Virus record (IMG/VR): IMGVR_UViG_3300030331_006276
From: a virus
Direction: 5' to 3' (one strand)
DNA: 64,000 bases
Part shown: piece after piece, positions 10,132-50,306 of the stretch
Layout: each line of letters starts with the position of its first letter
Numbering within the stretch: position 1 is the stretch's first letter
Notes under the pieces: generated by a model
Database searches by the model: none
Seen by the model: only the letters and a program-made list of their open reading frames with translations
Told to the model about the DNA's origin: nothing
Made by a program: the position numbers and the translations under genes

Positions 10132-10323
10132 CTCCCACCTAGCCTCTCCCTTTCGGGTTGTAGGCGTGAAGATTTTGACGCCTCGTTAATTGCTAGGAGC
10201 AGACCTGGGCAGGATTCGAACCTGCATTCCTTCTATAGACGCACCGGTGCGCGCATCGCGGCGTATGGTACCGTTCGCCGCTTGGTTTTTTACAGAAGGT
10301 CTTCCCTATTAGATGACCGGGTC
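10132..10323 (-). ncRNA. tRNA-like structured RNA with 53-nt insert at the anticodon loop and a 3' multibranch domain
   Basis: Acceptor-like GACCCGG/CCAGGTC, D-like arm, TTCTGTA/TATAGAA stem and a canonical GCAGG-TTCGAAT-CCTGC T-arm. It has its own promoter at 10339-10355. Confidence 0.7.
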
Positions 10324-16719: not shown

Positions 16720-17868
16720 TTATGATTTAGTATTGAACATTTCAAGTTTTTGTAATCTTAAAGGATTAGTAAGCTTACGAATAGCTTTAGCTTCTATCTG
16801 TCTAATTCTTTCTCTCGTTACTTCAAATCTATCTCCTACTTCCTCTAGAGTTCTCCTTACACCGTCTAACATTCCAAATCGCATCTCCATAACACCCATT
16901 TCACGATCATTGAGAGACGATACAGCATCAGCAATTTTCTCTCTCATACCATCAAGAGCTTCAATATCAACTCCTTGATATTCTTTTTCATCTTCAATAA
17001 AGTCAGCAATAGTTGTATTACCATCACCAACTGGCGTTTGCAATGAAATAGGATGCATTGCAACTTTAAGTATAGTCTTAACACGACTTACAGGTAAATC
17101 GATTTCTTCAGCAATTTCTTCTGGACTAGGCTCACAACCCCCAGCTTGAACTAACTGTCTTTGAATCCTAAATACTTTATTAATAGTATCAATCATATGC
17201 ATAGGTACGCGAATAGTTCTCCCCGTTTCACCTACACATTTAGTAATCGCTTGACGTATCCACCACGTAGCATAAGTAGAAAACTTATAACCACGTTTAT
17301 ATTCGAATTTTTCAACAGCTTTAATTAATCCAAGATTACCTTCTTGAATAAGATCTAGCAAAGCTACACCTCTATTCGTATATTTCTTTGCATTAGCAAC
17401 TACTAATCTTAGGTTAGCTTTAACCATTTCATCTTTTGCAATTCGTAATTCGCGAAGAGTTTTAATCATTAGAGGCATTCCTTCTTTAGCAATATCTTCA
17501 CACCAGCTATCGATAATTGATTGCTTCAAGTAAAATCGCTTATATAAAGTTTTAAGCTTCGAAATAGAATTTCCCTTCTTCGTTAGCGTAGCAACTAGCT
17601 TAGGAAGCCCTTTCATAAACTTTTCCTTAGAATCACTATCAATAGTATCTTCGAATCTTTGTTTACCTTCAATTAGATCGCAACCCAATCGATTAAAGAG
17701 CATTAAAGTATTATCTACTTTACAAAGAATATTAAACGCTTTTTTCTGAGATTTTTCAATTCTTTTAAATATCTCTACTTCTTGCTCTTTAGTTAAAAGC
17801 TCCGTCTGACCCATTTGCTTCATATAGGCGCGTATCGGATCATCTACGCGTTCATTTATTTTAGGCAT
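16720..17868 (-). CDS. rpoD: RpoD-like sigma70 factor (regions 1.2-4, no region 1.1)
   Basis: DDPIRAYM, ANLRLVV..AKKY, DLIQEGNLGL.KAVEKFEY.RGYKFSTYATWWIRQAIT and TLEEVG..F.VTRERIRQIE motifs. Start lies 6 nt after the promoter motif. Confidence 0.93.
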   Translation of the reverse strand: MPKINERVDDPIRAYMKQMGQTELLTKEQEVEIFKRIEKSQKKAFNILCKVDNTLMLFNRLGCDLIEGKQRFEDTIDSDSKEKFMKGLPKLVATLTKKGNSISKLKTLYKRFYLKQSIIDSWCEDIAKEGMPLMIKTLRELRIAKDEMVKANLRLVVANAKKYTNRGVALLDLIQEGNLGLIKAVEKFEYKRGYKFSTYATWWIRQAITKCVGETGRTIRVPMHMIDTINKVFRIQRQLVQAGGCEPSPEEIAEEIDLPVSRVKTILKVAMHPISLQTPVGDGNTTIADFIEDEKEYQGVDIEALDGMREKIADAVSSLNDREMGVMEMRFGMLDGVRRTLEEVGDRFEVTRERIRQIEAKAIRKLTNPLRLQKLEMFNTKS

Positions 17869-17976
17869 TATCTTATTATATCTGAGTTCCTTTAGTAATA
17901 TAATATCTTTTGATACTATGTTCAACTAAAGATTAAAGTTTTTTTTAGAGTTCCTTATGCATAAGGAACTTTTAAA

Positions 17977-18283: not shown

Positions 18284-18291
18284 TATAAATA
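18284..18291 (+). promoter_or_regulatory. T4-type late promoter TATAAATA
   Basis: Exact T4 late consensus, 5 nt before ATG 18297. Confidence 0.8.
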
Positions 18292-18296
18292 AACAT

Positions 18297-18752
18297 ATGA
18301 GACAGTTCGATAAAACAGCTAATGCAATCTTAAAAAGATTAAATGAAAATTTTATTAACAGCGCTGATGACGCTATTCAACATCAATGAGCTAAGACTAT
18401 TGCACACCCAGGTCTGGGTGAAGAAGATGAAGAGTTTCGTGTGATTGATCATAGCTTAACTGCTGATGGAGTTGTAGAAGAGTACTATGTTGATTATAAT
18501 GACGAGTTAATCTCAGTGCCGGCTGGTGAAGCTACAATTGTAGTTATAGAAGAGCATGATGAAGAAACTAAGATGCCTAAGCATAAAAAGAAAGAAGACG
18601 AGGAAAAGAAGAAGAAGAAGCATGACAAAGATCATGACGAAGACGAGGAAGAACTTAACTCTATTCGCGAAGCTTATGGGCTTTCTAAAAAGAGAAAAGG
18701 TCCTCATGGAGAGAAACCTAAACTTAACTGTAGATCAGTCCACAGTCTTTAA
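18297..18752 (+). CDS. Late protein with in-frame UGA at codon 31 (candidate selenoprotein, 151 aa)
   Basis: MRQFDKTANAILKRLNENFINSADDAIQHQ*AKTIAHPGLGEE... continues in frame into ORF 18441-18752. TGA is at 18387-18389 with a hairpin downstream. Confidence 0.7.
18405..18420 (+). promoter_or_regulatory. Bacterial SECIS-like hairpin
   Basis: CACCCAG-GT-CTGGGTG starts 16 nt after the UGA. The apical CAGGUCUG is identical to that of the E. coli fdhF SECIS. Confidence 0.65.
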
Positions 18753-18766
18753 TTTAACTTAAACAT

Positions 18767-18797
18767 AAAAAAAAGCCTCCTTTCGGAGGCTTTTTTT
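18767..18797. terminator. Bidirectional Rho-independent terminator
   Basis: A8-GCCTCC-TTTC-GGAGGC-T7 between convergent genes. Confidence 0.9.
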
Positions 18798-27209: not shown

Positions 27210-27221
27210 ATAAATATACAT

Positions 27222-29627
27222 ATGGGTAAAAAGATTACTGAGCTCAATGAAGGCGTTATACCATATACCGGAACCGAAGAGGTAGCATTAGTCGACGACG
27301 CACAAACTCGACGCGCTTCTCTGAGCTCAATTACAAATTATCTTTCAGGTGCAACTTACCAAACAGCAGCAGGTCAGCCAATCGATAGACCTATAGCCTC
27401 TCCACTGGGTAATAATTTCTTTCAAAAAACTCAATCAACAGTAGGAGACTTAAGTGCTACAGGAAGATTGTTTATTGGTGAGAGTATTGTAAGTAGTGGT
27501 ACTCTAGCCTCTGTTGTTGGTGGAACTGGTAACAGCGCAACAGGTGGTTGTTCTGTTGTCGGCGGTCAACAGAACTCAGCTACTCAAGCTAATACTAATA
27601 TTGGAGGAGGTCGATCAAACTTTGCATGTGGTGCATGCTCGACTGTAGGTGGTGGATTTAGTAACAAGGCCGGGTCTGGTGGCTGTGCAACTGTCGGTGG
27701 TGGTCAAGCTAATGATGCGTCTGGCGCCAGTGCGAGTATTTTAGGCGGTAGGCTAAATTGCGCTAGTGGTGTTTGTTCTACAGTAGGAGGAGGGTTTAAG
27801 AATAGTTCTAGTGGCTCTCAAGATGTTGTAGCGGGTGGTTTTTATAATATAGCTAATGGCAACCAAGCTTTTGTAGGTGGGGGTAAGAATAATCAAGCAA
27901 ACGCGGACTTTTCTACAGCTGTAGGTGGTCTTAGTTCATGCGCAAGATCAGATTATGCTTTTGTTGGTGGTGGTTTTGATAACTGCGCTAGTCAACAATA
28001 TGCAGCTGTTGTCAGTGGAGGTGCAAATACTGCATCAGGTTTAAGTTCATTTATTGGTGGTGGTGAATGCAATACAGCTTCAGGTAACTGTGGTTCAGTT
28101 GTTGTTGGAGGTATGAAGAGTAGTGCGACTGGCTTAAGTTCATTCATTGGAGGGGGTCAGTGTAATACAGCTGGCTCTGAAGGTAGTGCTGTAGTTGGAG
28201 GACATACTAATTCGGTAGGATCTACACTCGGTTTTATCGGCGGTGGTGTTGGTAATAATGTTAATGGAGCTAAGAGCGTTATTACTGGTGGGCAATCAAA
28301 TTCCATTTGTGGGCGCCATTCTACTATTGGTGGAGGTTGTAGTAATATTGCTTCTGATTGCGGATGCTTTTCTACTGTTGCAGGAGGAAGTAATAATAGA
28401 GCTGCGAATATTGGATTCGTTGGAGGAGGGGAATGCAATATTGGGGCTAGTACTTGTTGTTATGATACAGTTGTTGGTGGTTTAAGAAACTGTGCATGCG
28501 GTGGTAAATCTTTTGTAGGTGGTGGTGAGGGTAATAGCTCCTCTGGAACGTGTAGCATTATTGTAGGAGGTGGCTTTAATACTGTGACAAGCACTAATGG
28601 CAGTATAGGGGGTGGTGACGGCAATAAAGTTACAGGTGATGCTGGAACTGTTGCAGGTGGTAAACATAATCACATTACAGCGTCGTGTGTATTTATCGGT
28701 GGTGGTTTTGCTCTTTCAGCAGCAGATCTTTTTTCAACAATTGTTGGTGGTAATAAAAATAATGTACCTGCAACAGGAGGTGGTGCTCGAGCAAGCTTTA
28801 TAGGCGGAGGGGAAGAAAATGTTGTTACATGTGGTAGGCAAGCAGTGATTGTAGGTGGTAGTAAAAATACTACTACTGGTGACGCTAAAAATGGAGTGGT
28901 AGTTGGTGGTTTTTCGAATGTAGTTGGAACAAGTGCTTTTGCAGGCGGCGGTACTAATAACTCTGCATGTGGATCAACTAGTGTAGTTGTTGGTGGTAGG
29001 AATAATAGAGCTCATGGATGTTTTTCAAACATTGTAGGAGGTTGCAATAACGTAGCGCGTAATTGTTACTCTACAGTTGTAGGTGGTCAGTCTTTATCTG
29101 CAGCAGGAAATTGTGCATTTATAGGTGGAGGTACTGCTAACTGTACTACGACAGATCAAGCTGCACTCGTTGGTGGTTTTTGTAATGCTATTTTAAAAGG
29201 AGGCTGTCTGAGTATAATAGGTGGTGGTAGTAATCACACCACATGTGCAAAAAATAGCGTTGTTATTGGTGGAGATGCAAATCAGTTAAACTCCTGTGGA
29301 TGCTTTTCATCTATAGCTGGTGGTCAGCGAAGTTGCATATGTACTAATTTTAGTTTTATTGGCGGTGGGCTTTGTAATACTATTGGTGGCGTTGGTACCG
29401 CATCATCTCCACGACCAGGTGGTGGATCCGGAGCGAGCCGAGCATGTTTTTGTCATTCTTCAATATTAGGTTCTGATATTGTTGCAGTTTCTGGTCATAT
29501 GCTTCATACTAATAGACTCTTTCTTAGTGCTGATTGCTCTGGTTGTGGTATACCAACAAGTGATCCAAAAGTTGCGGGTGTTGTCTGGCGTTCCGGAACT
29601 GACTTAAAGATCTCTGTTGGACCATAA
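27222..29627 (+). CDS. Gly/Cys-rich beta-solenoid tail fibre or adhesin
   Basis: Dozens of ~14-aa (I/V)GGGxxN repeats, N-terminal KKITEL and C-terminal IPTSDP.VAGVVW..G..LKIS.G. Confidence 0.8.
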   Translation: MGKKITELNEGVIPYTGTEEVALVDDAQTRRASLSSITNYLSGATYQTAAGQPIDRPIASPLGNNFFQKTQSTVGDLSATGRLFIGESIVSSGTLASVVGGTGNSATGGCSVVGGQQNSATQANTNIGGGRSNFACGACSTVGGGFSNKAGSGGCATVGGGQANDASGASASILGGRLNCASGVCSTVGGGFKNSSSGSQDVVAGGFYNIANGNQAFVGGGKNNQANADFSTAVGGLSSCARSDYAFVGGGFDNCASQQYAAVVSGGANTASGLSSFIGGGECNTASGNCGSVVVGGMKSSATGLSSFIGGGQCNTAGSEGSAVVGGHTNSVGSTLGFIGGGVGNNVNGAKSVITGGQSNSICGRHSTIGGGCSNIASDCGCFSTVAGGSNNRAANIGFVGGGECNIGASTCCYDTVVGGLRNCACGGKSFVGGGEGNSSSGTCSIIVGGGFNTVTSTNGSIGGGDGNKVTGDAGTVAGGKHNHITASCVFIGGGFALSAADLFSTIVGGNKNNVPATGGGARASFIGGGEENVVTCGRQAVIVGGSKNTTTGDAKNGVVVGGFSNVVGTSAFAGGGTNNSACGSTSVVVGGRNNRAHGCFSNIVGGCNNVARNCYSTVVGGQSLSAAGNCAFIGGGTANCTTTDQAALVGGFCNAILKGGCLSIIGGGSNHTTCAKNSVVIGGDANQLNSCGCFSSIAGGQRSCICTNFSFIGGGLCNTIGGVGTASSPRPGGGSGASRACFCHSSILGSDIVAVSGHMLHTNRLFLSADCSGCGIPTSDPKVAGVVWRSGTDLKISVGP

Positions 29628-35894: not shown

Positions 35895-35926
35895 ATATAA
35901 TTGTCATGAAATAGATAAATAATTTT

Positions 35927-38800
35927 ATGGCACAGCGTACGATTAACTCTCCTGGAGTAGAAATTAGAGAAGCAGATCTTTCACTCACCGCCCCGTTAAA
36001 CGTTGGAACTAACGTATATGTTACTGGTTTCGCGCAACAGGGACCCCTTGATGAAGTTCTTAAAATTACAACTAAACAAGAACTAAATAACGTCTTTGGA
36101 CCTCCAACCAACTCATCTGAAAGATATTTCTACTATACTATAAATGAATTGTTAAATTCACCAGCTAATATATTTGCTAGTAGATTGCCATACGGTCATG
36201 GTACTGGTGATGGATTTGGATCTAAATATTCAGCTTTAGTATACCCAGTACGTAACGTTACTGGTGATTCGCAACTGGGTCAGTTAAGTGCCTTCCATCT
36301 TAATCAAAAATTTAATGCTACTAATTCACATACTGCTCTCTCTGGAGTAGAGATTCAAATTCAATCTGGTCGTGGAGTTCTAAGCTCTGTTGTCTTTGGA
36401 TTTGGCACTGCTAAACCAAGTGGTTCTGCCAACCCTCTTGTGGGTGCTAATACCGGTGCTAGTGAATTCCCTACGACGTCCTCTGTAGGAATTAATCGTG
36501 GTGGAACTACTAACGTAATTCAAATTAGTGCTAGTAAAACTGGTGGTAATACACCTCAATCGATTAGACACGTATTGTCTTCTGTAGTTCGTTTATCAGC
36601 TGGTTATGGTACTAAAGCTGCAGCTCCTGGTGTTAATAACACAATTAAAGTAGATTCATTTAACTTTGCAGCAAGTGCAGGAAATGCACCTAATACTTTC
36701 GCTAGTACTTCTATTAAAATTAGTCTTACTGGTGCTTCTGCACTTAAGACTGTTGGTGTAATTACACCGTCAGTTAATAATCCATTTACCGGTGCTACTG
36801 ATACTTTCTCTATTAGTGCTGAATCTAATCAGCAAATTTCAACTAGCTTAGATACGGCTTCAGCAGTATACGTATTAGGTCAGCCTACACACTTAGAACT
36901 TACTGAATCACAATATCTTAGTGCTTTACAAGGTACAGCGTATACTTGGTCAAAAACTGCTGGTGCGAAAGATTCTTTCAGTACTATTGCTGATGCAGGA
37001 GGAGCCGGCGCTGTTATCTTAAATAAGTCAACGTCAACTATTAATAATCAATTTGAAGGTTTTTATGTTGGTCTTGCTGATAACACAAACACAACGCCAG
37101 GTACTAACTTTAATAATATATTAACAACTAAGACGCTAACACAATCAGCTGCTGCAACAACAACATATACAACAATACCAGCAGGTACGCAAGTGTTTAA
37201 ACTATCAGCTAACTTTGAAACAGGTACAACTAATTCAGTATCTGAAGTGATGGAAAATCTTACTGATTTTGAAATCGATGGAAGAACTGATGATGATGTC
37301 TTAAGCTTAGGTGTATTTAAGTTACGTAAATCGATTTACGCTAATGAAGCATTCAAGCTTGATTATGTATTAGAAGATGGTATAGCTGGATCAATTAACT
37401 ATTATAGAACGCAGCTTAACCCAGCTGGAGGACAGGATATTCCATTCTTTGTAGAATCTCGAGATGATTTATCACGTAACGTTGTTGTTAAAGTTAATGA
37501 TTACGTATCAAATAGACTTAGAGGTACAAACGCTCTAGATGCTAATGGAAATGTTAATAAGAGAATTAGATTATTAACTACTGAGCTAGCTACTAATACT
37601 GATGCTGAGGGTGTAGCAAAGACAGGAATTGATGGATCGCAATATTCAGGCTTAGAAACTGCTGTTGGAAAAGCTGAAAGTTTATTCCCATTAGGTGCTT
37701 ATACCGAAGCAACTGTCGAAGGTAAAGAATTAGGAGATATTCCTAATAAGTTAGAAAGAGCACTTGATGCTATTAAAAACGATGATATCTACGATATTGA
37801 TGTTGTTGTTGAAGGTGGCTTAGGTACAATCTATACTATAGCAAGTGCTGATAATTTAACTTATTACGATGAGTATTCAGCAACATCTGCTGAAGCTGTT
37901 AATGGATTAAGAACATCGAATGAAATTACAGGTGCTGCAGCAACTCTTAGAAATAATTACTCGACTATCTTTAATAAATTCGAGCAATTTGTCTCACCAC
38001 CTTACTTAGGAGGTGGTAGAGGTGATTGTATATTTATTGCTGATCCATTACGTCAAATCTTTGTACAAGGAACAGAAGGTAAGATACTTGATGATAAAAA
38101 TAAGAACTTCCAGACAGATATTTACTGGCCTGTAAGACATCAATTTGAAAACGAGAATACATCTTACGCGGCAGTATATGGTAACTGGGCATTAATATAT
38201 GATACCTATTCTGGACGTCAAGTATATGTTCCGTTCTCTGGATTTGCTGGAGCTATAATGGCAAGATCAGATGCTGCAACCTTCCCATGGTTTGCACCAG
38301 CTGGCTTCACAAGAGGGCTTGTAACAAATGCTAATGACATAGCGGTTAATCCTAATCAAAAGCAAAGGGATGAGTTTTATAAAGCAAACATTAACCCTGT
38401 AGCACAATTCCCATCGCAGGGATTAGTAGTATTTGGACAGAAAACACTTTCAAAGAAATCGAGTGCATTTGACAGAATTAATGTTAGAAGGTTGTTCTTA
38501 AGCTTAGAAAGACCTACTAAGAAAGCTACTAGATTCTTTGTATTTGAACAAAATACAGAGTTTACTAGAACAAGAATAGTTAATACTCTTACCCCAATCT
38601 TTGAAAGGGCTAAGAATAACGAAGGCTTGTTTGATTACTTGATTGTATGTGATGAGAGAAACAACACACCAGCAATTATAGATGCTAATGAGTTGGTAGT
38701 TGATATTTACATCAAACCAACAAGAACAGCAGAGTTTATCTTAGTTAACTTCTTTGCCACTAGAACAGATGCTAATTTTGAAGAATTAGTCGGTGGTTAA
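35927..38800 (+). CDS. Tail sheath protein (gp18)
   Basis: SPGVEIREADL, PWFAPAGFTRG, INPV, FGQKTL...SAFDRINVRRLFL and IKPTRTAEFI motifs. Confidence 0.95.
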   Translation: MAQRTINSPGVEIREADLSLTAPLNVGTNVYVTGFAQQGPLDEVLKITTKQELNNVFGPPTNSSERYFYYTINELLNSPANIFASRLPYGHGTGDGFGSKYSALVYPVRNVTGDSQLGQLSAFHLNQKFNATNSHTALSGVEIQIQSGRGVLSSVVFGFGTAKPSGSANPLVGANTGASEFPTTSSVGINRGGTTNVIQISASKTGGNTPQSIRHVLSSVVRLSAGYGTKAAAPGVNNTIKVDSFNFAASAGNAPNTFASTSIKISLTGASALKTVGVITPSVNNPFTGATDTFSISAESNQQISTSLDTASAVYVLGQPTHLELTESQYLSALQGTAYTWSKTAGAKDSFSTIADAGGAGAVILNKSTSTINNQFEGFYVGLADNTNTTPGTNFNNILTTKTLTQSAAATTTYTTIPAGTQVFKLSANFETGTTNSVSEVMENLTDFEIDGRTDDDVLSLGVFKLRKSIYANEAFKLDYVLEDGIAGSINYYRTQLNPAGGQDIPFFVESRDDLSRNVVVKVNDYVSNRLRGTNALDANGNVNKRIRLLTTELATNTDAEGVAKTGIDGSQYSGLETAVGKAESLFPLGAYTEATVEGKELGDIPNKLERALDAIKNDDIYDIDVVVEGGLGTIYTIASADNLTYYDEYSATSAEAVNGLRTSNEITGAAATLRNNYSTIFNKFEQFVSPPYLGGGRGDCIFIADPLRQIFVQGTEGKILDDKNKNFQTDIYWPVRHQFENENTSYAAVYGNWALIYDTYSGRQVYVPFSGFAGAIMARSDAATFPWFAPAGFTRGLVTNANDIAVNPNQKQRDEFYKANINPVAQFPSQGLVVFGQKTLSKKSSAFDRINVRRLFLSLERPTKKATRFFVFEQNTEFTRTRIVNTLTPIFERAKNNEGLFDYLIVCDERNNTPAIIDANELVVDIYIKPTRTAEFILVNFFATRTDANFEELVGG

Positions 38801-41668: not shown

Positions 41669-43612
41669 GTGGCAGATGATATTATACCCATACAGCAAGC
41701 TTTAGAAGCGTTAACTGCTATGCAGCGTGCAGAAGGTCAAGCTGCACAAGATTACGATGCTGTTAATAACATTGGTAAGAATGTTAATAATTCTTCTCTT
41801 TTTGGCGTTAAGAAAAAGGAAACAGTAAAAGCATCTTTAACATCAGCAGAAAGAGGCAGACTTAAAAATAGCACAGCTATAGTTATTGCAGAATTTTTCA
41901 AATTAAAAAGTAGGTATGAAAAAGATACAAAACCTGATACTGTTATAAAGAGAAAACAAGCTGATGCTAAAAAAAGCACAGATCTTATGATGGGAAAAGG
42001 TGAAGGTGAAAGAGATGGTCAAAGTATTCTGGATTATATATCTGGTCTAATGGGATTGTTTGGTATTGGTGGTGCACTAGGTCGTCGTGGTTTATTAAAA
42101 ATGCTTGGTGATTGGATCTGGAAGGGTATAAAATTTGGTGGTGATAAAATTTGGCAAGGATTAAAAAATGTAGGATCAGCGGCGTGGACTGCTATCAAAG
42201 CAGGATTTACTGGTGTAGGTAATTTCTTTAAAAATTTATATACTGGATTTAGAAATTCATCTTTCTGGAAAGGTTTTACGGGTGCTATTAATAGCGGCTT
42301 AGCATCTGCTAAAAACTTTATAATGTCTGCAAAAAATGCACTTGCAAGTGCATTATCTGCTGTAGGTACTGCTACAAAAAATGCTCTCTCTGCAGCTGTA
42401 GCAGCACGACCTCCAAGACGACCAACACCAGCAAGAAGATCGCCGCCGAAGTCGAAGGGCCTTTTTGGAAAAATTGGTGATTTTGCTGGCAAGGCTCTTA
42501 AAAGTGGTGGGGAGTTAATTGGTTCAGGTGCAAAATTTGTTGCTGATAAAGCTGTACAAGCTAAAGACTTTACTGTTAAAACTGTAGCTAAGGGTAAAGA
42601 TATTGTAGTTAAAGGAGCTAAGCTTGTTGGTGAGAAAGCTCTGCAGCCTGTCATGATGGTGATAAGAAAAGGATTTGAAAGTGTTATTGGTAAAGGAGGG
42701 GCAAATATAGCAAGATTTCTAGGAGGTACAGCTAGAAGAATTCCTATCATTGGACCAGCTATTGAAGGATTGTTTACAGCTGCTGATATAAAAAAGCTAA
42801 AAAAGAGACATTTAGAAGACCCAACTGGATTTTCTGCTAGTCAATTAAATGAAGCTGCTGGGCGAAGAGCTATAAAAGGTATTACAGCGGCAATTGGTGC
42901 AGCAGGTGGTGCATTCTTAGGTGGTGTAGCTGGTGCAGCTTCTGGTCCATTTGCTTTCTTAGGCACACCTATAGGAGCATTTTTAGGAGGGGTTAGTGGA
43001 GATCTCTTAGGTCGCTTTATTGGTGATTTGCTTAGCACATATATAGTACCAGATTCTGCAAAACTATCAATTGGTAGATTATTTACAGGCGTTGAGGATA
43101 GGAAAATGCCTACAGAATTACAAGACTTTATTATCCAACGTGGAGTTGTTACTCCGTTTAGCGAAAAAGATGTTGTTATGGGTATGAAGCCGGGCGGAGC
43201 TATTGGCGAGTTTCTTGGTGAAACTGGTAATAGTATAAAAAATTTAATAAACGAAGTAAGACAACCAAAACGTCATACTACTGTTAGTCAAATATTTAGT
43301 GACCCATTTTTAACAGCAAATGGAAATTCAAAAGCTTTAACACTTAGTAACGCTTTAGGAAGATTACAAGTAAAAGCAATTGGTGTATCAAACAACCATT
43401 TAGCCCAACTTGTACAACTTACCCAATTATTAGTCAAAAAGCCAGCCGGGGGTAGTGTTGGCGGTTCAGGTAATACTATACTCAATGTATCACAGCCATC
43501 AGATTCTATACCCGGAACGCAAGGAGATCCAACAGGTCCAGAATTTGCTGATAGTCGAACTGAGTTTTATAATTCCGCTTATAGTATGCATACACCCGGT
43601 ACTCTGACATAA
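41669..43612 (+). CDS. Tape measure / gp29-like hub protein
   Basis: Long Ala/Gly-rich helical protein with RRIPIIGP and GAAGGAFLGG..G segments. Confidence 0.7.
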   Translation: MADDIIPIQQALEALTAMQRAEGQAAQDYDAVNNIGKNVNNSSLFGVKKKETVKASLTSAERGRLKNSTAIVIAEFFKLKSRYEKDTKPDTVIKRKQADAKKSTDLMMGKGEGERDGQSILDYISGLMGLFGIGGALGRRGLLKMLGDWIWKGIKFGGDKIWQGLKNVGSAAWTAIKAGFTGVGNFFKNLYTGFRNSSFWKGFTGAINSGLASAKNFIMSAKNALASALSAVGTATKNALSAAVAARPPRRPTPARRSPPKSKGLFGKIGDFAGKALKSGGELIGSGAKFVADKAVQAKDFTVKTVAKGKDIVVKGAKLVGEKALQPVMMVIRKGFESVIGKGGANIARFLGGTARRIPIIGPAIEGLFTAADIKKLKKRHLEDPTGFSASQLNEAAGRRAIKGITAAIGAAGGAFLGGVAGAASGPFAFLGTPIGAFLGGVSGDLLGRFIGDLLSTYIVPDSAKLSIGRLFTGVEDRKMPTELQDFIIQRGVVTPFSEKDVVMGMKPGGAIGEFLGETGNSIKNLINEVRQPKRHTTVSQIFSDPFLTANGNSKALTLSNALGRLQVKAIGVSNNHLAQLVQLTQLLVKKPAGGSVGGSGNTILNVSQPSDSIPGTQGDPTGPEFADSRTEFYNSAYSMHTPGTLT

Positions 43613-43620
43613 ATATTATT

Positions 43621-44748
43621 ATGCCGGTTGATTCGGATATAGTTAGAAATTATGACTGGACCTCTGTTCCAAGAAACTCAGCTTTGAGGGAAGAGGCGCC
43701 AGTAGCTATATGTACGGCGCATACACTTAATAGTAATCAATTGCAACAATTTGTTCAAGGTTATATGAATACTGTTCGATTCACGGATACAGTTGGTGAT
43801 GATGGTATTGCTTTTTATAAAGGTCTTTATCAAGGAGGAGAAATAATTGATACATTCTTTTTTCCTTTTTTTACAGATGATTTTCGAGCATTTAGTAATG
43901 AATATTCTGATTCCTTTTCCCCTATAAGTCAGCGAGGAGCGCGTATGGTAGGTGCAGAAATAATTGAAAACTTGGCTGGTGCAGGAGAAAAATTAATCGG
44001 TGGTGGAGCTGCTTTAGGAAAAGGTCTTTTATCTGTTGGTGCTGGTTTAGTTGAAGGTGTAAAATCTTTAAGTGATACAACAGCTGATCAGACTATGATT
44101 GGGGGGATGGGTAGGCTTGGATCATTTTTAAATGACCTAGGTAGTAAAGCAGCAACTATGCAAGGTCAAATGGCAGGTACAAAATCGATAGGTGCACCTG
44201 GATCATTTATTGAAACGCCAAAATTCTATCAATATGCTAACACTGATCAAGGGTTACAAATATCATTTGCTTTATCTAATACATTAAATGATGACGCACC
44301 TCTAAAAAATGCTGAGTTTATAAAAGAGTTTACTATTATAAATAGACCTAGACGAGAAGGACCGTTAGGTATGACCTTCCCAGCAATCTATCATATTGAA
44401 GTACCTGGATTAAGATATATAGAATGGGCTTACTTAGAAAATTTTGGCATATCAATGTTAGGTCAAAGAAGAAAAATTAACGATGTTATAATTCCTGAAG
44501 CTTATATTATAACATTAAACTTTATATCATTAACAATTGAGCCGGCTAACTTTATGAAATTTGTACAAACACCAAGTCAAAGTGGAGTTGAGTATGAACG
44601 TGAAAGGGCTGCAGCTTTAGGTCAACTGAGAGAGCAGTTTGAGACAGGTGAGAATTTTGTAGGACCACCATCAAATTTCTCACCTCAAACTTTAGCTAAT
44701 GAAAATTCCCAATTATTAAGACAAAGAAATGAAAGGTTTGGAAGATAA
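43621..44748 (+). CDS. Baseplate tail-tube cap gp48-like
   Basis: Position. ETPKFYQY and FPAIYHIEVPG patterns. Confidence 0.5.
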   Translation: MPVDSDIVRNYDWTSVPRNSALREEAPVAICTAHTLNSNQLQQFVQGYMNTVRFTDTVGDDGIAFYKGLYQGGEIIDTFFFPFFTDDFRAFSNEYSDSFSPISQRGARMVGAEIIENLAGAGEKLIGGGAALGKGLLSVGAGLVEGVKSLSDTTADQTMIGGMGRLGSFLNDLGSKAATMQGQMAGTKSIGAPGSFIETPKFYQYANTDQGLQISFALSNTLNDDAPLKNAEFIKEFTIINRPRREGPLGMTFPAIYHIEVPGLRYIEWAYLENFGISMLGQRRKINDVIIPEAYIITLNFISLTIEPANFMKFVQTPSQSGVEYERERAAALGQLREQFETGENFVGPPSNFSPQTLANENSQLLRQRNERFGR

Positions 44749-48792: not shown

Positions 48793-49713
48793 ATGATTGA
48801 TTTTGATAAAATTTGGGTTGAAAAGTATCGACCGAAGACGCTAAATGATGTTATCTTAGATGAAGAGACATTAAGAGTAGTTAAAGAGTATAAGAATGAA
48901 ATTCCTAATCTTCTTTTTGTTGGTAATCCTGGTACTGGCAAAACCACCCTTGCTAGAGTTATTGTTAACGATATACTCGGATGTAATTATCTTTATATTA
49001 ATGCTTCTGATGAGTCTGGTATCGATACTATTCGACATAATATCACTAATTTTGCTCAAACTAAATCTTTTGACGGTGGCATTAAAGTAGTAATTTTAGA
49101 TGAAGGTGATGGATTAACTGCTCAAGCGCAAGCTGCGTTGCGTAATACTATGGAAACATTTGCTAAGTATTGCAGATTTATTATTACTGCTAACTATAAG
49201 CATAAAATTATTCCTGCCTTGCAGTCTAGATGTCAGTCACTAACTATTAAGCCGGTTGTTGAACTAGCAGTTAAAAGATGTTATCTTATTCTTAAAAATG
49301 AAAACGTTAATGTACCTGAAGAACAAAAGAAAAAATTTGTACAACTCGTCAAGCGTCACTTCCCCGATCTTCGGAAAACGATCAACGAACTCCAGAAAAA
49401 CGTTATTGATTCAGAGCTGTGTATTACTAGCATTGTTAGTGATAGCGAGTTGCTCGAAACAATCTACAGAAAAATAAGTTCTAAAAAATGCCTTGAGGCG
49501 AGGAGATACTTGATAGAAAATGAAGATAGGTTTCAAGGTGATTATGATACTTTACTAAGTAACTACTTAAACTTTATCTACTCTGCAAATATTGACGATA
49601 TTAAAAAGAAAGAGATGATTGCTATTATCGCAGATCATCTCTATAAAAGTGCGTTTGTTGTAGATAAAGAAATTAACGCCTTTGCGTGTCTAGTAAATCT
49701 AGAAAAAGTTTAA
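48793..49713 (+). CDS. Clamp loader AAA+ subunit (gp44)
   Basis: WVEKYRPKTL, GNPGTGKTT, VILDEGD, RFIITANY and SRC motifs. Confidence 0.93.
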   Translation: MIDFDKIWVEKYRPKTLNDVILDEETLRVVKEYKNEIPNLLFVGNPGTGKTTLARVIVNDILGCNYLYINASDESGIDTIRHNITNFAQTKSFDGGIKVVILDEGDGLTAQAQAALRNTMETFAKYCRFIITANYKHKIIPALQSRCQSLTIKPVVELAVKRCYLILKNENVNVPEEQKKKFVQLVKRHFPDLRKTINELQKNVIDSELCITSIVSDSELLETIYRKISSKKCLEARRYLIENEDRFQGDYDTLLSNYLNFIYSANIDDIKKKEMIAIIADHLYKSAFVVDKEINAFACLVNLEKV

Positions 49714-50306
49714 GCTTTTTTAAGATCAGACAAATACTGATTTGTGTATGATGTTACAGCAGGAGATGGCGTTGCTGGGTCACTTGGAATATCAGTATTT
49801 TGCTTAGGTAAAGACCTTTCGGTTGGAGAAAGATCGTGGGGCTCGAGTCCGCCTCTATCAGTCCTATTTGCGCGCATCTCTTCGTCTTCTACATACTCTT
49901 CAGGCTTGATAGTTACAGTACTCTTTCTCTTAAGAGCGTCTGGTATAGGCAAAAGATTAGGCGCGTATTGTATAGCATGGCCCATCGTACCAGGTACAGT
50001 TACGTAGTGTGAATATCTTCCACCGCCCTCATCGAGAGCAAGATTTAAATTTACATGTAGGGAAGATTGTTGCGAGCTGGCCGGGAAGCGCGTCGGAGCA
50101 GTATCTTTTATTCCTGTAACTCTAATATGCAGACCTGAGTCTATCATTTTAGTAATAAGATCTTTTGTAGCTTTACCTAATGCTTTATAACATTCCATTG
50201 ATTGGTAATCATCATTAAACTTAAAAACGTCACCTACGAGAAAGCCTCCACGCTCATACCTTCTCATATACGATTCATGTAAACTTACAAACTTTTTTTC
50301 GGCCAT
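49710..50306 (-). CDS. Hypothetical late protein
   Basis: Start MAEKKFVSLHESY lies 5 nt after TAAATA. Confidence 0.7.
   Translation of the reverse strand: MAEKKFVSLHESYMRRYERGGFLVGDVFKFNDDYQSMECYKALGKATKDLITKMIDSGLHIRVTGIKDTAPTRFPASSQQSSLHVNLNLALDEGGGRYSHYVTVPGTMGHAIQYAPNLLPIPDALKRKSTVTIKPEEYVEDEEMRANRTDRGGLEPHDLSPTERSLPKQNTDIPSDPATPSPAVTSYTNQYLSDLKKA

What the first reader, a model, noticed from the sequence alone, without database searches (positions are those of the whole stretch)
18297..18752. Candidate phage-encoded selenoprotein: in-frame UGA plus fdhF-like SECIS hairpin under a late promoter
Seen: a perfect TATAAATA promoter puts ATG 18297 at the usual 5-nt spacing. The frame hits TGA at codon 31 (HQ*AKTIAH) and then continues for 120 more sensible codons. 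A perfect 7-bp hairpin, CACCCAG-GT-CTGGGTG, starts 16 nt after the UGA. Established: bacterial SECIS elements lie just 3' of the UGA with a G in the apical loop, and the E. coli fdhF SECIS has the same CAGGUCUG apex (here about 3 nt further from the UGA). TGA is an ordinary stop elsewhere in this genome (e.g. 15959), so this is site-specific rather than a code change. Inference: from memory, related T4-like proteins carry H-x-C-A-x-x-V-x-H, so Sec would replace Cys. A late (possibly virion) selenoprotein using host SelAB/tRNA-Sec would be very unusual. No selA, selB, selD or tRNA-Sec is seen in this window.
Basis: partly seen in the sequence, partly recalled or inferred. Interest (0 to 1): 0.92.

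Follow-up and report, generated by a model that had tools for sequence, protein, structure and literature searches.

The report
Selenocysteine-coding gene in marine phage
A small late gene of an uncultured marine T4-like phage has an internal UGA "stop" that every related phage sequence keeps where cyanophage relatives have cysteine, always followed by a co-varying RNA hairpin of the bacterial selenocysteine-insertion type, so it most likely encodes a selenoprotein, which I found reported for no virus of bacteria.

Summary

- **Gene layout:** ATG 18297, an in-frame TGA at 18387-18389, and a hairpin at 18405-18420. These sit in one unit that runs from a late-promoter box to a terminator.
- **TGA conservation:** All 119 homologous loci I fetched carry TGA at this codon (64 distinct downstream sequences, down to about 30% identity).
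- **Cysteine relatives:** More distant relatives have Cys there (TGT or TGC) in the same motif, H-x-C/U-A-x-H. About 270 cultured cyanophage records are among them, and cyanobacteria lack selenocysteine (Sec) decoding.
- **Hairpin coupling:** A hairpin with GU at its tip follows 62 of 64 distinct TGA forms. It follows 0 of 56 Cys forms and 0.8% of background codons. At least eight different stem sequences occur. One pair switches G-C to A-U with no mixed cases. Synonymous sites are frozen only inside the hairpin.
- **bSECIS model:** The window's hairpin meets every constraint of the published bacterial SECIS (bSECIS) model. It shares the apex CAGGUCUG with E. coli fdhF.
- **Evolution:** The TGA forms make one clade nested among the Cys forms.
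- **Open points:** The host is unknown. The phages carry no tRNA-Sec, selB or selD. Nothing is shown experimentally. The protein's function is unknown; it folds as an SH3-like barrel with three invariant His plus Sec/Cys.

This scan has already flagged other candidate phage selenoproteins on other DNA.

The parts
18284..18291 (+). Late-promoter-like box TATAAATA, 5 nt before the ATG
   Evidence: Read. ATAAATA-N5-ATG occurs 12 times in the window against 0.87 expected, in front of the sheath gene and other late genes. The same box precedes the start codon of the upstream part of the gene in most of the related IMG/VR loci.
18297..18752 (+). Whole gene: 151 codons plus the TAA stop, with UGA at codon 31 read through (candidate selenoprotein)
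   Evidence: One search gives the translation. Full-length relatives cover 100% of it. Synonymous variation with conserved residues is seen on both sides of the TGA.
18387..18389 (+). In-frame UGA, proposed Sec codon (U31), inside the invariant motif H29-x-U31-A32
   Evidence: TGA is present in 119 of 119 homologous loci. Cys (TGT or TGC) occupies this column in 56 distinct distant forms (alignments A4 and A7).
18405..18420 (+). SECIS-like hairpin CACCCA-GGUC-UGGGUG, 15-nt spacer after the UGA, loop 21 nt after the UGA
   Evidence: Energy is -7.9 kcal/mol. 99.6% of cells are paired, and pair 25:28 is G-C in 25 rows and A-U in 14 rows. The hairpin is present in 62 of 64 TGA forms and 0 of 56 Cys forms. 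It meets the bSECIS model quoted in PMC13188914.
18381..18557 (+). Conserved core domain (residues 29-87): five-strand SH3-like barrel carrying invariant H29, U31, A32, H52, G58 and H87
   Evidence: Invariant columns come from A2 and A7. The AlphaFold2 domain model has pLDDT 82 and pTM 0.68. The same domain occurs in cyanophage proteins at TM about 0.7 and rmsd 1.6-2.6.
18768..18797 (.). G+C-rich palindromic stem flanked by A/T runs, 16 nt after the stop codon; it closes the one-gene unit
   Evidence: 13 pairs, scored on the - strand. The stem is palindromic, with an A run on one side and a T run on the other.

Best explanation
The gene at 18297-18752 is one late-transcribed gene. Its codon 31, UGA, is most likely decoded as selenocysteine.

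**Proposed mechanism (inferred from the known bacterial pathway):** The hairpin at 18405-18420 acts as a bacterial-type SECIS. It presents a GU dinucleotide at its tip and recruits the host's SelB·GTP·Sec-tRNA(Sec) as the ribosome reaches the UGA. The phage itself supplies none of this machinery, so it depends on a Sec-competent host.

**The product:** It is a 151-residue protein.
- The N-terminal part is variable.
- The core is a small SH3-like beta-barrel in which Sec31 sits beside invariant His29. Two further invariant His residues are His52 and His87.
- Next comes a highly charged disordered stretch, followed by a conserved C-terminal motif, PHG-x-[KR]-PKL.

**What the residues suggest (inferred):** A His3 plus Sec/Cys set points to a metal-binding or redox centre in which Se replaced S once in this phage clade.

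**Shown here:** the conservation of the TGA, the Sec/Cys pairing, the hairpin tied to the UGA, translation of both halves in one frame, and the domain fold.

**Inferred:** SelB binding, Sec incorporation, and the protein's chemistry and role.
For: 1. **TGA conservation.** TGA stands at the aligned codon in 119 of 119 loci from IMG/VR and metagenomes, covering 64 distinct downstream sequences. Three further very distant forms also carry it (L224-L226).
2. **Database 'W' calls.** The 103 full-length database proteins showing W at this column appear to be code-4 gene calls of TGA. All four I looked up translate only with TGA=W.
3. **Cys relatives.** A profile search of 1.84 billion representatives finds relatives with Cys in the same H-x-C-A-x-H motif. 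The codons are TGT in 47 and TGC in 9 distinct forms. These forms occur in about 270 cultured Synechococcus and Prochlorococcus phage records. Cyanobacteria appear to lack Sec use (PMC9312934).
4. **Hairpin tied to the UGA.** A hairpin with a GU loop, at least 5 bp, and a 10-18 nt spacer is found in 62 of 64 TGA forms. It is found in 0 of 56 Cys forms and in 0.83% of 15,831 background codons.
5. **Co-variation.**
   - Stems differ between clades: CACCCA/UGGGUG, CAUCCA/UGGGUG, UGCCCA/UGGGUG, GCRCC/GGYGC, CUCCUC/GGGGAG, GUCCUC/GAGGGC, AGUGGC/GCCACU and AGUGGAA/UUCCGCU. All keep GU in the loop.
   - Pair 25:28 is G-C in 25 rows and A-U in 14 rows, with no mixed rows. No shuffle out of 500 reached the observed score.
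6. **Frozen synonymous sites.** Freezing occurs only inside the hairpin: CCA 54/54 and GGT 53/54 in group A, and CCT 15/15, GGG 13/13 and GAG 13/13 in group B, in a 34% G+C genome. Neighbouring codons vary freely.
7. **bSECIS model.** The window's hairpin meets all four published constraints: loop 3-9 nt, stem 4-16 bp, G in the first two loop positions, spacing 16-37 nt, and energy at or below -7.5 kcal/mol (PMC13188914). It shares its apex with E. coli fdhF.
8. **One gene.** There is one promoter box and one terminator. Residues 32-47 are conserved with synonymous change, although no start codon precedes them.
9. **Phylogeny.** The 21 U-form representatives make one clade (support 98/84) nested among 67 Cys-form rows.
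Against: - The host is unknown, so its selA/B/C/D genes could not be checked.
- The phage window has no tRNA-Sec, and a 93%-complete 197-kb relative has no tRNA-Sec, suppressor tRNA, selB or selD.
- There is no experimental evidence: no 75Se labelling, no mass spectrometry, no reads.
- The hairpin is short. The 61-nt local fold is no more stable than shuffles. 20 of 64 TGA forms miss the -7.5 kcal/mol cut-off when only the ungapped hairpin is scored.
- The loop lies 3 nt further from the UGA than in fdhF.
- No Rfam family reached its gathering score on this gene, and the E<=10 scan of 18340-18480 listed no SECIS family.
- All TGA forms descend from one switch. The conservation therefore counts one origin plus long retention, not repeated origins.
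Confidence: 0.8

Rival explanations
1. Programmed leaky termination. UGA31 mostly stops translation, giving a 30-residue peptide. A small fraction of ribosomes read through with a near-cognate tRNA (Trp in bacteria). The hairpin acts as a stimulator or pause site, as in the coat-protein read-through of phage Q-beta. A fixed ratio of short to long product would then be what selection keeps.
For: UGA is the leakiest bacterial stop codon (general knowledge). The TGA is strictly kept, which a ratio-setting stop would also explain. No Sec machinery is encoded by the phage.
Against: - The column is Cys in all 56 distinct non-TGA forms and never Trp. It sits inside the most conserved motif of the family rather than at a domain boundary.
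- The part upstream of the UGA is the least conserved part. The UGA falls at codon 30 to 116 in different relatives, so it is unlikely to be a functional product on its own.
- No TGG variant exists among 119 loci.
- The hairpin keeps the GU tip typical of SelB-binding SECIS elements.
Confidence: 0.09
2. Recoding of UGA by some other route. This could be an unknown phage factor, or hosts that read UGA as a sense codon in certain contexts, inserting Cys or another residue without the Sec pathway.
For: The host is unknown. The phages carry tRNAs, and one relative carries a tmRNA, so they do act on translation.
Against: - TGA is a normal stop for many genes of the same phage, some with ATGA overlaps. 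Only one site in 64 kb shows the signature.
- ARAGORN finds no tRNA with anticodon UCA in the window or in the 197-kb relative.
- The signal has the shape of a known bSECIS.
Confidence: 0.07
3. There are two separate genes or a broken gene: a 30-codon ORF ending at TGA, and a 103-codon ORF starting at GTG 18441, as gene callers annotate it on long contigs. The hairpin would then be an unrelated RNA element.
For: Gene calls of 100-107 residues starting at M/VIDHSL exist on long contigs.
Against: - The two parts are in the same frame in all 119 loci.
- Codons 32-47, between the TGA and that start, are conserved as protein with synonymous change.
- In many relatives there is no start codon at that place (LVVDH and AVVDH forms).
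- The invariant His29 lies upstream of the TGA and is part of the domain shared with the Cys forms.
- A stop inside a broken gene would not be kept down to 30% identity.
Confidence: 0.02

Closest known systems
Bacterial selenoprotein genes with an in-ORF SECIS read by SelB (prototype E. coli fdhF; bSECIS consensus model, PMC13188914)
   Same: In-frame UGA, with a stem-loop directly downstream inside the coding sequence. There is a G followed by U at the tip of a small apical loop. The spacing of 21 nt falls within 16-37 nt. Cys-containing homologues exist. The apex octamer CAGGUCUG is identical to that of fdhF.
   Different: The gene lies in a phage genome that has none of the Sec machinery. 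The protein family is unrelated to any listed selenoprotein family. The loop is 3 nt further from the UGA than in fdhF, and there is no bulged U. SelB binding is not shown.
Cys-form homologues in T4-like cyanophages (for example Syn33_183 of phage Syn33; PHROGs 22379, 11470, 764; often mislabelled 'cytidyltransferase')
   Same: Same domain: H-x-C/U-A-x-H ... H ... G ... Y-x-V ... H, as an SH3-like barrel. These are also phage genes, and the Syn33 copy lies near a head-protein gene.
   Different: They have TGT or TGC instead of TGA and no hairpin (0 of 56). They are often longer, sometimes with two copies of the domain or fused or adjacent to a nucleotidyltransferase. Their hosts are cyanobacteria, which lack Sec decoding (PMC9312934).
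Selenoproteins of eukaryotic viruses (glutathione peroxidases of molluscum contagiosum virus and fowlpox virus; PMC8310308, PMC1802603)
   Same: A virus-encoded UGA-Sec gene that relies fully on the host's Sec machinery. In fowlpox the SECIS also lies inside the coding region.
   Different: Those are captured host GPx genes with eukaryotic-type SECIS elements. This one is a phage-specific family with a bacterial-type hairpin.
UGA read-through of the coat gene in RNA phage Q-beta (A1 protein)
   Same: A phage gene in which a UGA is passed by some ribosomes to give a longer protein.
   Different: In Q-beta the stop ends a complete functional protein, Trp is inserted, and no Cys homologues or GU-tipped hairpin are involved (general knowledge). 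Here the UGA sits in the conserved active motif.

Membership tests
Bacterial selenoprotein gene (Sec-UGA plus bSECIS) | In-frame UGA conserved at the same codon in homologues | tested here: met
   TGA in 119 of 119 loci, 64 distinct downstream sequences, plus L224-L226.
Bacterial selenoprotein gene (Sec-UGA plus bSECIS) | Cys-containing homologues with Cys aligned to the UGA and conserved flanks (Sec/Cys pair) | tested here: met
   H-x-C-A-x-H in distant relatives. 56 distinct Cys forms use TGT or TGC.
Bacterial selenoprotein gene (Sec-UGA plus bSECIS) | bSECIS model: apical loop 3-9 nt, upper stem 4-16 bp, G in the first two loop positions, 16-37 nt from UGA to loop, energy at or below -7.5 kcal/mol (PMC13188914) | tested here: met
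   Window: loop GGUC, 6 bp, 21 nt, -7.9 kcal/mol. Across the family, 44 of 64 pass the strict ungapped version. 62 of 64 pass a version with a GU loop and at least 5 bp. The Cys forms pass in 1 of 56 and 0 of 56 respectively.
Bacterial selenoprotein gene (Sec-UGA plus bSECIS) | Structure supported by compensatory change | tested here: met
   Pair 25:28 is G-C (25 rows) or A-U (14 rows) with none unpaired. 99.6% of cells are paired, and no shuffle out of 500 reached this. At least eight stem sequences occur across clades.
Bacterial selenoprotein gene (Sec-UGA plus bSECIS) | Organism (here the host) has selA, selB, selC and selD | not testable with these tools
   The host is unknown and no whole genome is held. 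The one genome-collection scan found nothing useful. The phage contigs themselves lack tRNA-Sec, selB and selD.
Bacterial selenoprotein gene (Sec-UGA plus bSECIS) | Selenium actually incorporated; SelB binds the hairpin | not testable with these tools
   Needs 75Se labelling, mass spectrometry or binding assays.
Rfam SECIS families | Match to a curated SECIS covariance model | tested here: inconclusive
   No SECIS family appeared at gathering score or at E <= 10. Bacterial SECIS elements are said to be poorly represented in Rfam (bioRxiv 10.64898/2026.04.03.716425).
Cyanophage H-x-C-A-x-H domain family (PHROGs 22379 / 11470 / 764) | Significant sequence or fold match to the family's domain | tested here: met
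   The family profile reaches the Cys forms, and these hit the PHROGs at E down to 2e-35. The domain model matches cyanophage proteins at TM 0.63-0.72 and 25-31% identity. The window protein alone hits no PHROG.
Whole-genome stop-codon reassignment (code 4 or 25) | TGA not used as a stop; many in-frame TGAs in genes | tested here: not met
   TGA ends 8 of 59 long ORFs, and several TGA-ending ORFs overlap the next start by ATGA. Only one in-frame TGA with open flanks and a hairpin exists in 64 kb.
T4-type capsid-internal proteins with an N-terminal targeting peptide | N-terminal MKTYxEF-like peptide ending in (L/I)-x-E, cut by the prohead protease | tested here: inconclusive
   Some members start MKTYNEF or MKTFNEF, and the group around the window has L-N-E at residues 15-17. 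However, the window's own N-terminus, MRQFDK, is only loosely similar. No virion data exist.

The most novel reading that the evidence does not exclude
A whole, widespread clade of marine T4-like phages makes a selenoprotein by using the host's SelB and tRNA-Sec. In this reading the protein is a late, possibly head-packaged and injected, small barrel whose His3-Sec centre binds a metal or performs redox chemistry early in infection. That would tie the host range of these phages to Sec-competent bacteria. It would also make phage particles carriers of selenium in the ocean.
Probability: 0.3. Interest if true: 0.92.

Novelty: new variant of a known kind. Interest (0 to 1): 0.85.

Why it matters
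**Novelty.** Selenocysteine decoding is known in bacteria, archaea, eukaryotes and two poxviruses. I found no phage-encoded selenoprotein in the reviews and full-text searches available to me.

**If true, it shows three things.**
- Phages can depend on, and exploit, a non-universal part of the host's translation system.
- It gives a sequence marker (a TGA form against a Cys form of one gene) that may report whether an uncultured phage's host can decode Sec.
- It adds a new selenoprotein family with an unusual His-rich site.

**A practical point for annotation.** Gene callers either truncate this gene or, on short contigs, switch to code 4 and write Trp. Phage selenoproteins are therefore systematically hidden in databases.

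Tried and rejected
- **Close relatives among deposited phages.** None was found for the locus, the read-through protein or a tail protein. The terminase is only 34-39% identical to those of rhizobial and other T4-like phages.
- **Host identification.**
  - No whole genome is held.
  - The single genome-collection scan, run with the phage sigma factor, returned one irrelevant Parcubacteria locus.
  - The protein atlas gave only a weak hint: the nearest sigma-factor clusters are commonest in Myxococcota and Thermodesulfobacteriota.
  - Loci of the more distant TGA forms had almost no DNA match to cultured phages.
- **Read support and expression.** The 119 independent assemblies make an assembly error implausible anyway.
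- **Function.**
  - Pfam gave only low-complexity noise.
  - Foldseek and VIA-align against PDB gave only generic SH3, Tudor and KOW barrels, with E above 0.1 and Z below 5.
  - The ESM Atlas fold search failed twice.
- **Earlier marine selenoproteome work.** The GOS families GOS_A and GOS_B are different proteins, and the motif strings of this family are absent from the held supplements.
- **A suppressor tRNA.** The tRNA-shaped element at 10201-10323 is not called by ARAGORN, even with introns allowed.
- **HMA reading of the second candidate.** I read the second candidate in relative G001 as a heavy-metal-associated (HMA) domain. Pfam does not support that.
- **First attempt to fetch Cys-form loci.** The attempt with the wide alignment A4 failed for lack of conserved stretches.

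Full report
**1. What is in the window**

The window is 34% G+C and carries a T4-type large terminase, a tail sheath and a baseplate wedge protein. It also carries a sigma-70 gene and three tRNA genes.

On the + strand, TATAAATA at 18284-18291 is followed after 5 nt by ATG 18297. The frame meets TGA at 18387-18389 (codon 31) and then runs on to TAA at 18750-18752. A strong palindromic terminator-like stem follows at 18768-18797.

The box ATAAATA-N5-ATG occurs 12 times in the window against 0.87 expected. It stands before the sheath gene and other late genes. The stretch therefore looks like a single late transcription unit.

The hairpin CACCCA-GGTC-TGGGTG lies at 18405-18420, 15 nt after the TGA.

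TGA is otherwise a normal stop. It ends 8 of 59 long ORFs, and several TGA-ending ORFs overlap the next start by ATGA.

**2. The TGA is conserved, not an error**

A protein search with the read-through product found 163 relatives. All 103 full-length ones show W at position 31. Those W are apparently artefacts of gene callers that chose code 4 on short contigs. All four genes I looked up translate only with TGA=W. On long contigs the gene is instead truncated to about 100 residues.

I fetched the DNA of 39 IMG/VR loci and 80 metagenome loci. The aligned codon is TGA in 119 of 119 loci, covering 64 distinct downstream 60-mers.

The relatives diverge to about 30% identity. The part before the TGA varies greatly, so the TGA falls at codon 30 to 116 in different relatives. 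Yet the two parts are always in one frame. In most of the IMG/VR loci the late box precedes the start of the upstream part.

**3. Both halves are translated**

Among 54 distinct sequences of the window's group, codons just before and just after the TGA keep their residue while using two to four synonymous codons. An example is Ala+1 as GCT, GCG or GCA. Residues 32-47 are thus under protein-level selection, although no start codon precedes them. In many relatives the start used by gene callers does not exist.

**4. Cysteine in distant relatives**

A profile of 25 diverse TGA forms was searched against 1.84 billion representative proteins. It found relatives with the same core but with Cys: H-x-C-A-x-H-V ... 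H-[ST]-L ... G ... Y-x-V ... H.

In 56 distinct Cys-form DNA segments the codon is TGT (47) or TGC (9).

These Cys forms belong to PHROGs 22379, 11470 and 764. They occur in about 270 cultured Synechococcus and Prochlorococcus phage records. One example is Syn33_183, which is mislabelled cytidyltransferase and lies near a head-protein gene.

A review states that Cyanobacteria are among the few lineages that appear to lack Sec use (PMC9312934).

Across Sec and Cys forms together, His29, His52, Gly58 and His87 are invariant (A7). A maximum-likelihood tree of the domain puts all 21 U-form representatives in one clade (support 98/84) nested among 67 Cys rows. This fits one Cys-to-Sec switch followed by strict retention. 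The domain is short, so deep branches are uncertain.

**5. The hairpin goes with the UGA**

Every one of the 64 distinct TGA forms has a hairpin starting 10-18 nt after the TGA with GU in the loop. The stems differ between clades:
- CACCCA/UGGGUG
- CAUCCA/UGGGUG
- UGCCCA/UGGGUG
- GCRCC/GGYGC
- CUCCUC/GGGGAG
- GUCCUC/GAGGGC
- AGUGGC/GCCACU and AGUGGAA/UUCCGCU in three very distant forms

I applied a fixed rule: at least 5 bp, GU within the first three loop bases, a spacer of 10-18 nt, and energy at or below -3 kcal/mol. The results were:

| Set | Pass the fixed rule |
|---|---|
| Distinct TGA forms | 62 of 64 |
| Distinct Cys forms | 0 of 56 |
| Background codons in the window's long ORFs | 0.83% of 15,831 |

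In the alignment of 49 same-register sequences, 99.6% of cells pair. The innermost pair is G-C in 25 distinct rows and A-U in 14, with none mixed. That switch changes Gly to Ser together with a synonymous Leu change. No shuffle out of 500 reached the observed values.

Synonymous sites are frozen only within the hairpin. Examples are CCA 54/54 in one group, and GGG 13/13 and GAG 13/13 in another, despite the AT-rich genome.

**6. Comparison with the known signal**

The published bacterial SECIS model asks for four things (PMC13188914):
- a 3-9 nt apical loop on a 4-16 bp stem
- a G in the first two loop positions, mostly followed by G or U
- 16-37 nt between the UGA and the loop
- energy at or below -7.5 kcal/mol

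The window's element has a GGUC loop, 6 bp, 21 nt spacing and -7.9 kcal/mol. Under a strict ungapped version, 44 of 64 TGA forms pass. That compares with 1 of 56 Cys forms and 0.74% of background codons.

I read fdhF of E. coli K-12 directly. TGA is followed by 18 nt and then a GGTC loop, and the octamer CAGGTCTG is the same as in the window.

Rfam gave no SECIS match. That is weak evidence, because bacterial SECIS elements are poorly covered there.

**7. Who decodes it**

ARAGORN finds no tRNA-Sec or suppressor tRNA in the window or in a 93%-complete 197-kb relative. That relative has the same three tRNAs plus a tmRNA. Searches of five related phage contigs found no selB or selD, and no tRNA-Sec above the cut-off. 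Decoding must therefore use host factors.

The host is unknown. Abundant low-G+C marine bacteria with complete Sec machinery do exist. One preprint reports this for Actinomarina and reports that Pelagibacter lacks selC. This shows plausibility only.

A second candidate exists in the 197-kb relative. It is a signal-peptide protein with T-U-x-G-C and a hairpin 16 nt after its TGA, kept in its one fetched relative. This weakly supports a Sec-competent host.

**8. The protein**

AlphaFold2 on the domain gives a five-strand barrel with pLDDT 82 and pTM 0.68. Sec31 lies at the start of the first strand. Solved structures give only generic SH3, Tudor and KOW matches with Z below 5. Predicted viral structures return the cyanophage Cys-form proteins at TM about 0.7.

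The function is unknown. The invariant His3 plus Sec/Cys set suggests a metal or redox site, which is an inference. Several features make a virion or internal protein possible but unproven:
- late expression
- a charged disordered tail
- T4-like MKTYxEF starts in some members
- a position near head genes in Syn33

**9. Alternatives**

Read-through by Trp-tRNA, another recoding route, and two separate genes are each considered under the rival explanations. The Cys-only column, the place of the UGA inside the conserved motif, the GU-tipped hairpin restricted to TGA forms, and the in-frame conservation all argue against them.

**10. Literature and the scan**

I found no phage selenoprotein in the reviews or full-text searches. 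The GOS families GOS_A and GOS_B are different proteins.

Earlier notes of this scan report other candidate phage selenoproteins on other DNA. By sequence, only this genome held this family.

**Verdict**

This is a new selenoprotein family in a new setting (a virus of bacteria) that uses a known decoding mechanism. My confidence in Sec decoding is about 0.8. The host and the protein's function remain open.

Noticed in passing
window, 12 sites, e.g. 18285-18299, 27210-27224, 35915-35929, 43609-43623: ATAAATA lies exactly 5 nt before ATG at 12 genes (0.87 expected). With a T4-type late promoter so close to the start codon, the late mRNAs would be almost leaderless, or the box may double as a translation signal.
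   Followed up: partly
It has an acceptor-like stem and a good T-arm, but a 53-nt G+C-rich two-hairpin insert stands where the anticodon loop should be. ARAGORN does not call it even with introns allowed, and there is no Rfam hit.
   Followed up: partly
window 16720-17925 (- strand): A phage-encoded full-length sigma-70 (RpoD-like) factor (PHROG 351, E = 3e-91). This is unusual for a T4-like phage. The nearest atlas clusters are commonest in Myxococcota and Thermodesulfobacteriota.
   Followed up: partly
L213:15777-16193 (- strand), 197-kb relative IMGVR_UViG_3300030419_007641: ARAGORN calls a tmRNA gene in the related phage, with tag peptide AANKVVDFVLPQAEPQFALAA.
   Followed up: no
L214:6386-6760 (- strand) and L228:1501-1884: A second candidate selenoprotein in the related 197-kb phage. 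It has a signal peptide, then ...EMTGVT-TGA-AGCK..., a U-x-x-C motif. A hairpin AUGUCC-GUG-GGGCAU lies 16 nt after the TGA. Both the TGA and the hairpin are kept in the one relative found (70% identity). Pfam gives no domain, and there is no homologue in this window.
   Followed up: partly
database proteins P0002-P0121; L040, L224-L226: Gene callers hide this gene in two ways. On short contigs they switch to code 4 and print Trp at the Sec codon (103 entries). On long contigs they start at an internal GTG or ATG and lose the first 48 residues.
   Followed up: yes
L130:2339-3877 (Prochlorococcus phage Syn33, Syn33_183): The cyanophage Cys-form proteins are widely annotated 'cytidyltransferase'. 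The nucleotidyltransferase motif is actually in the neighbouring gene (Syn33_182), or in a fused domain in some phages. The H-x-C-A-x-H barrel itself has no such similarity.
   Followed up: partly
P0139, P0145, P0147, P0179: Some Cys-form proteins carry two copies of the H-x-C-A-x-H barrel in one chain.
   Followed up: no
window 49710-50306 (- strand); L014, L029, L033 downstream of the Sec gene: The late gene starting MAEKKFVSLHESYMRRYERGGFLVGDVFKF in the window is the immediate downstream neighbour of the Sec gene in other clades. In this phage it lies 31 kb away.
   Followed up: no
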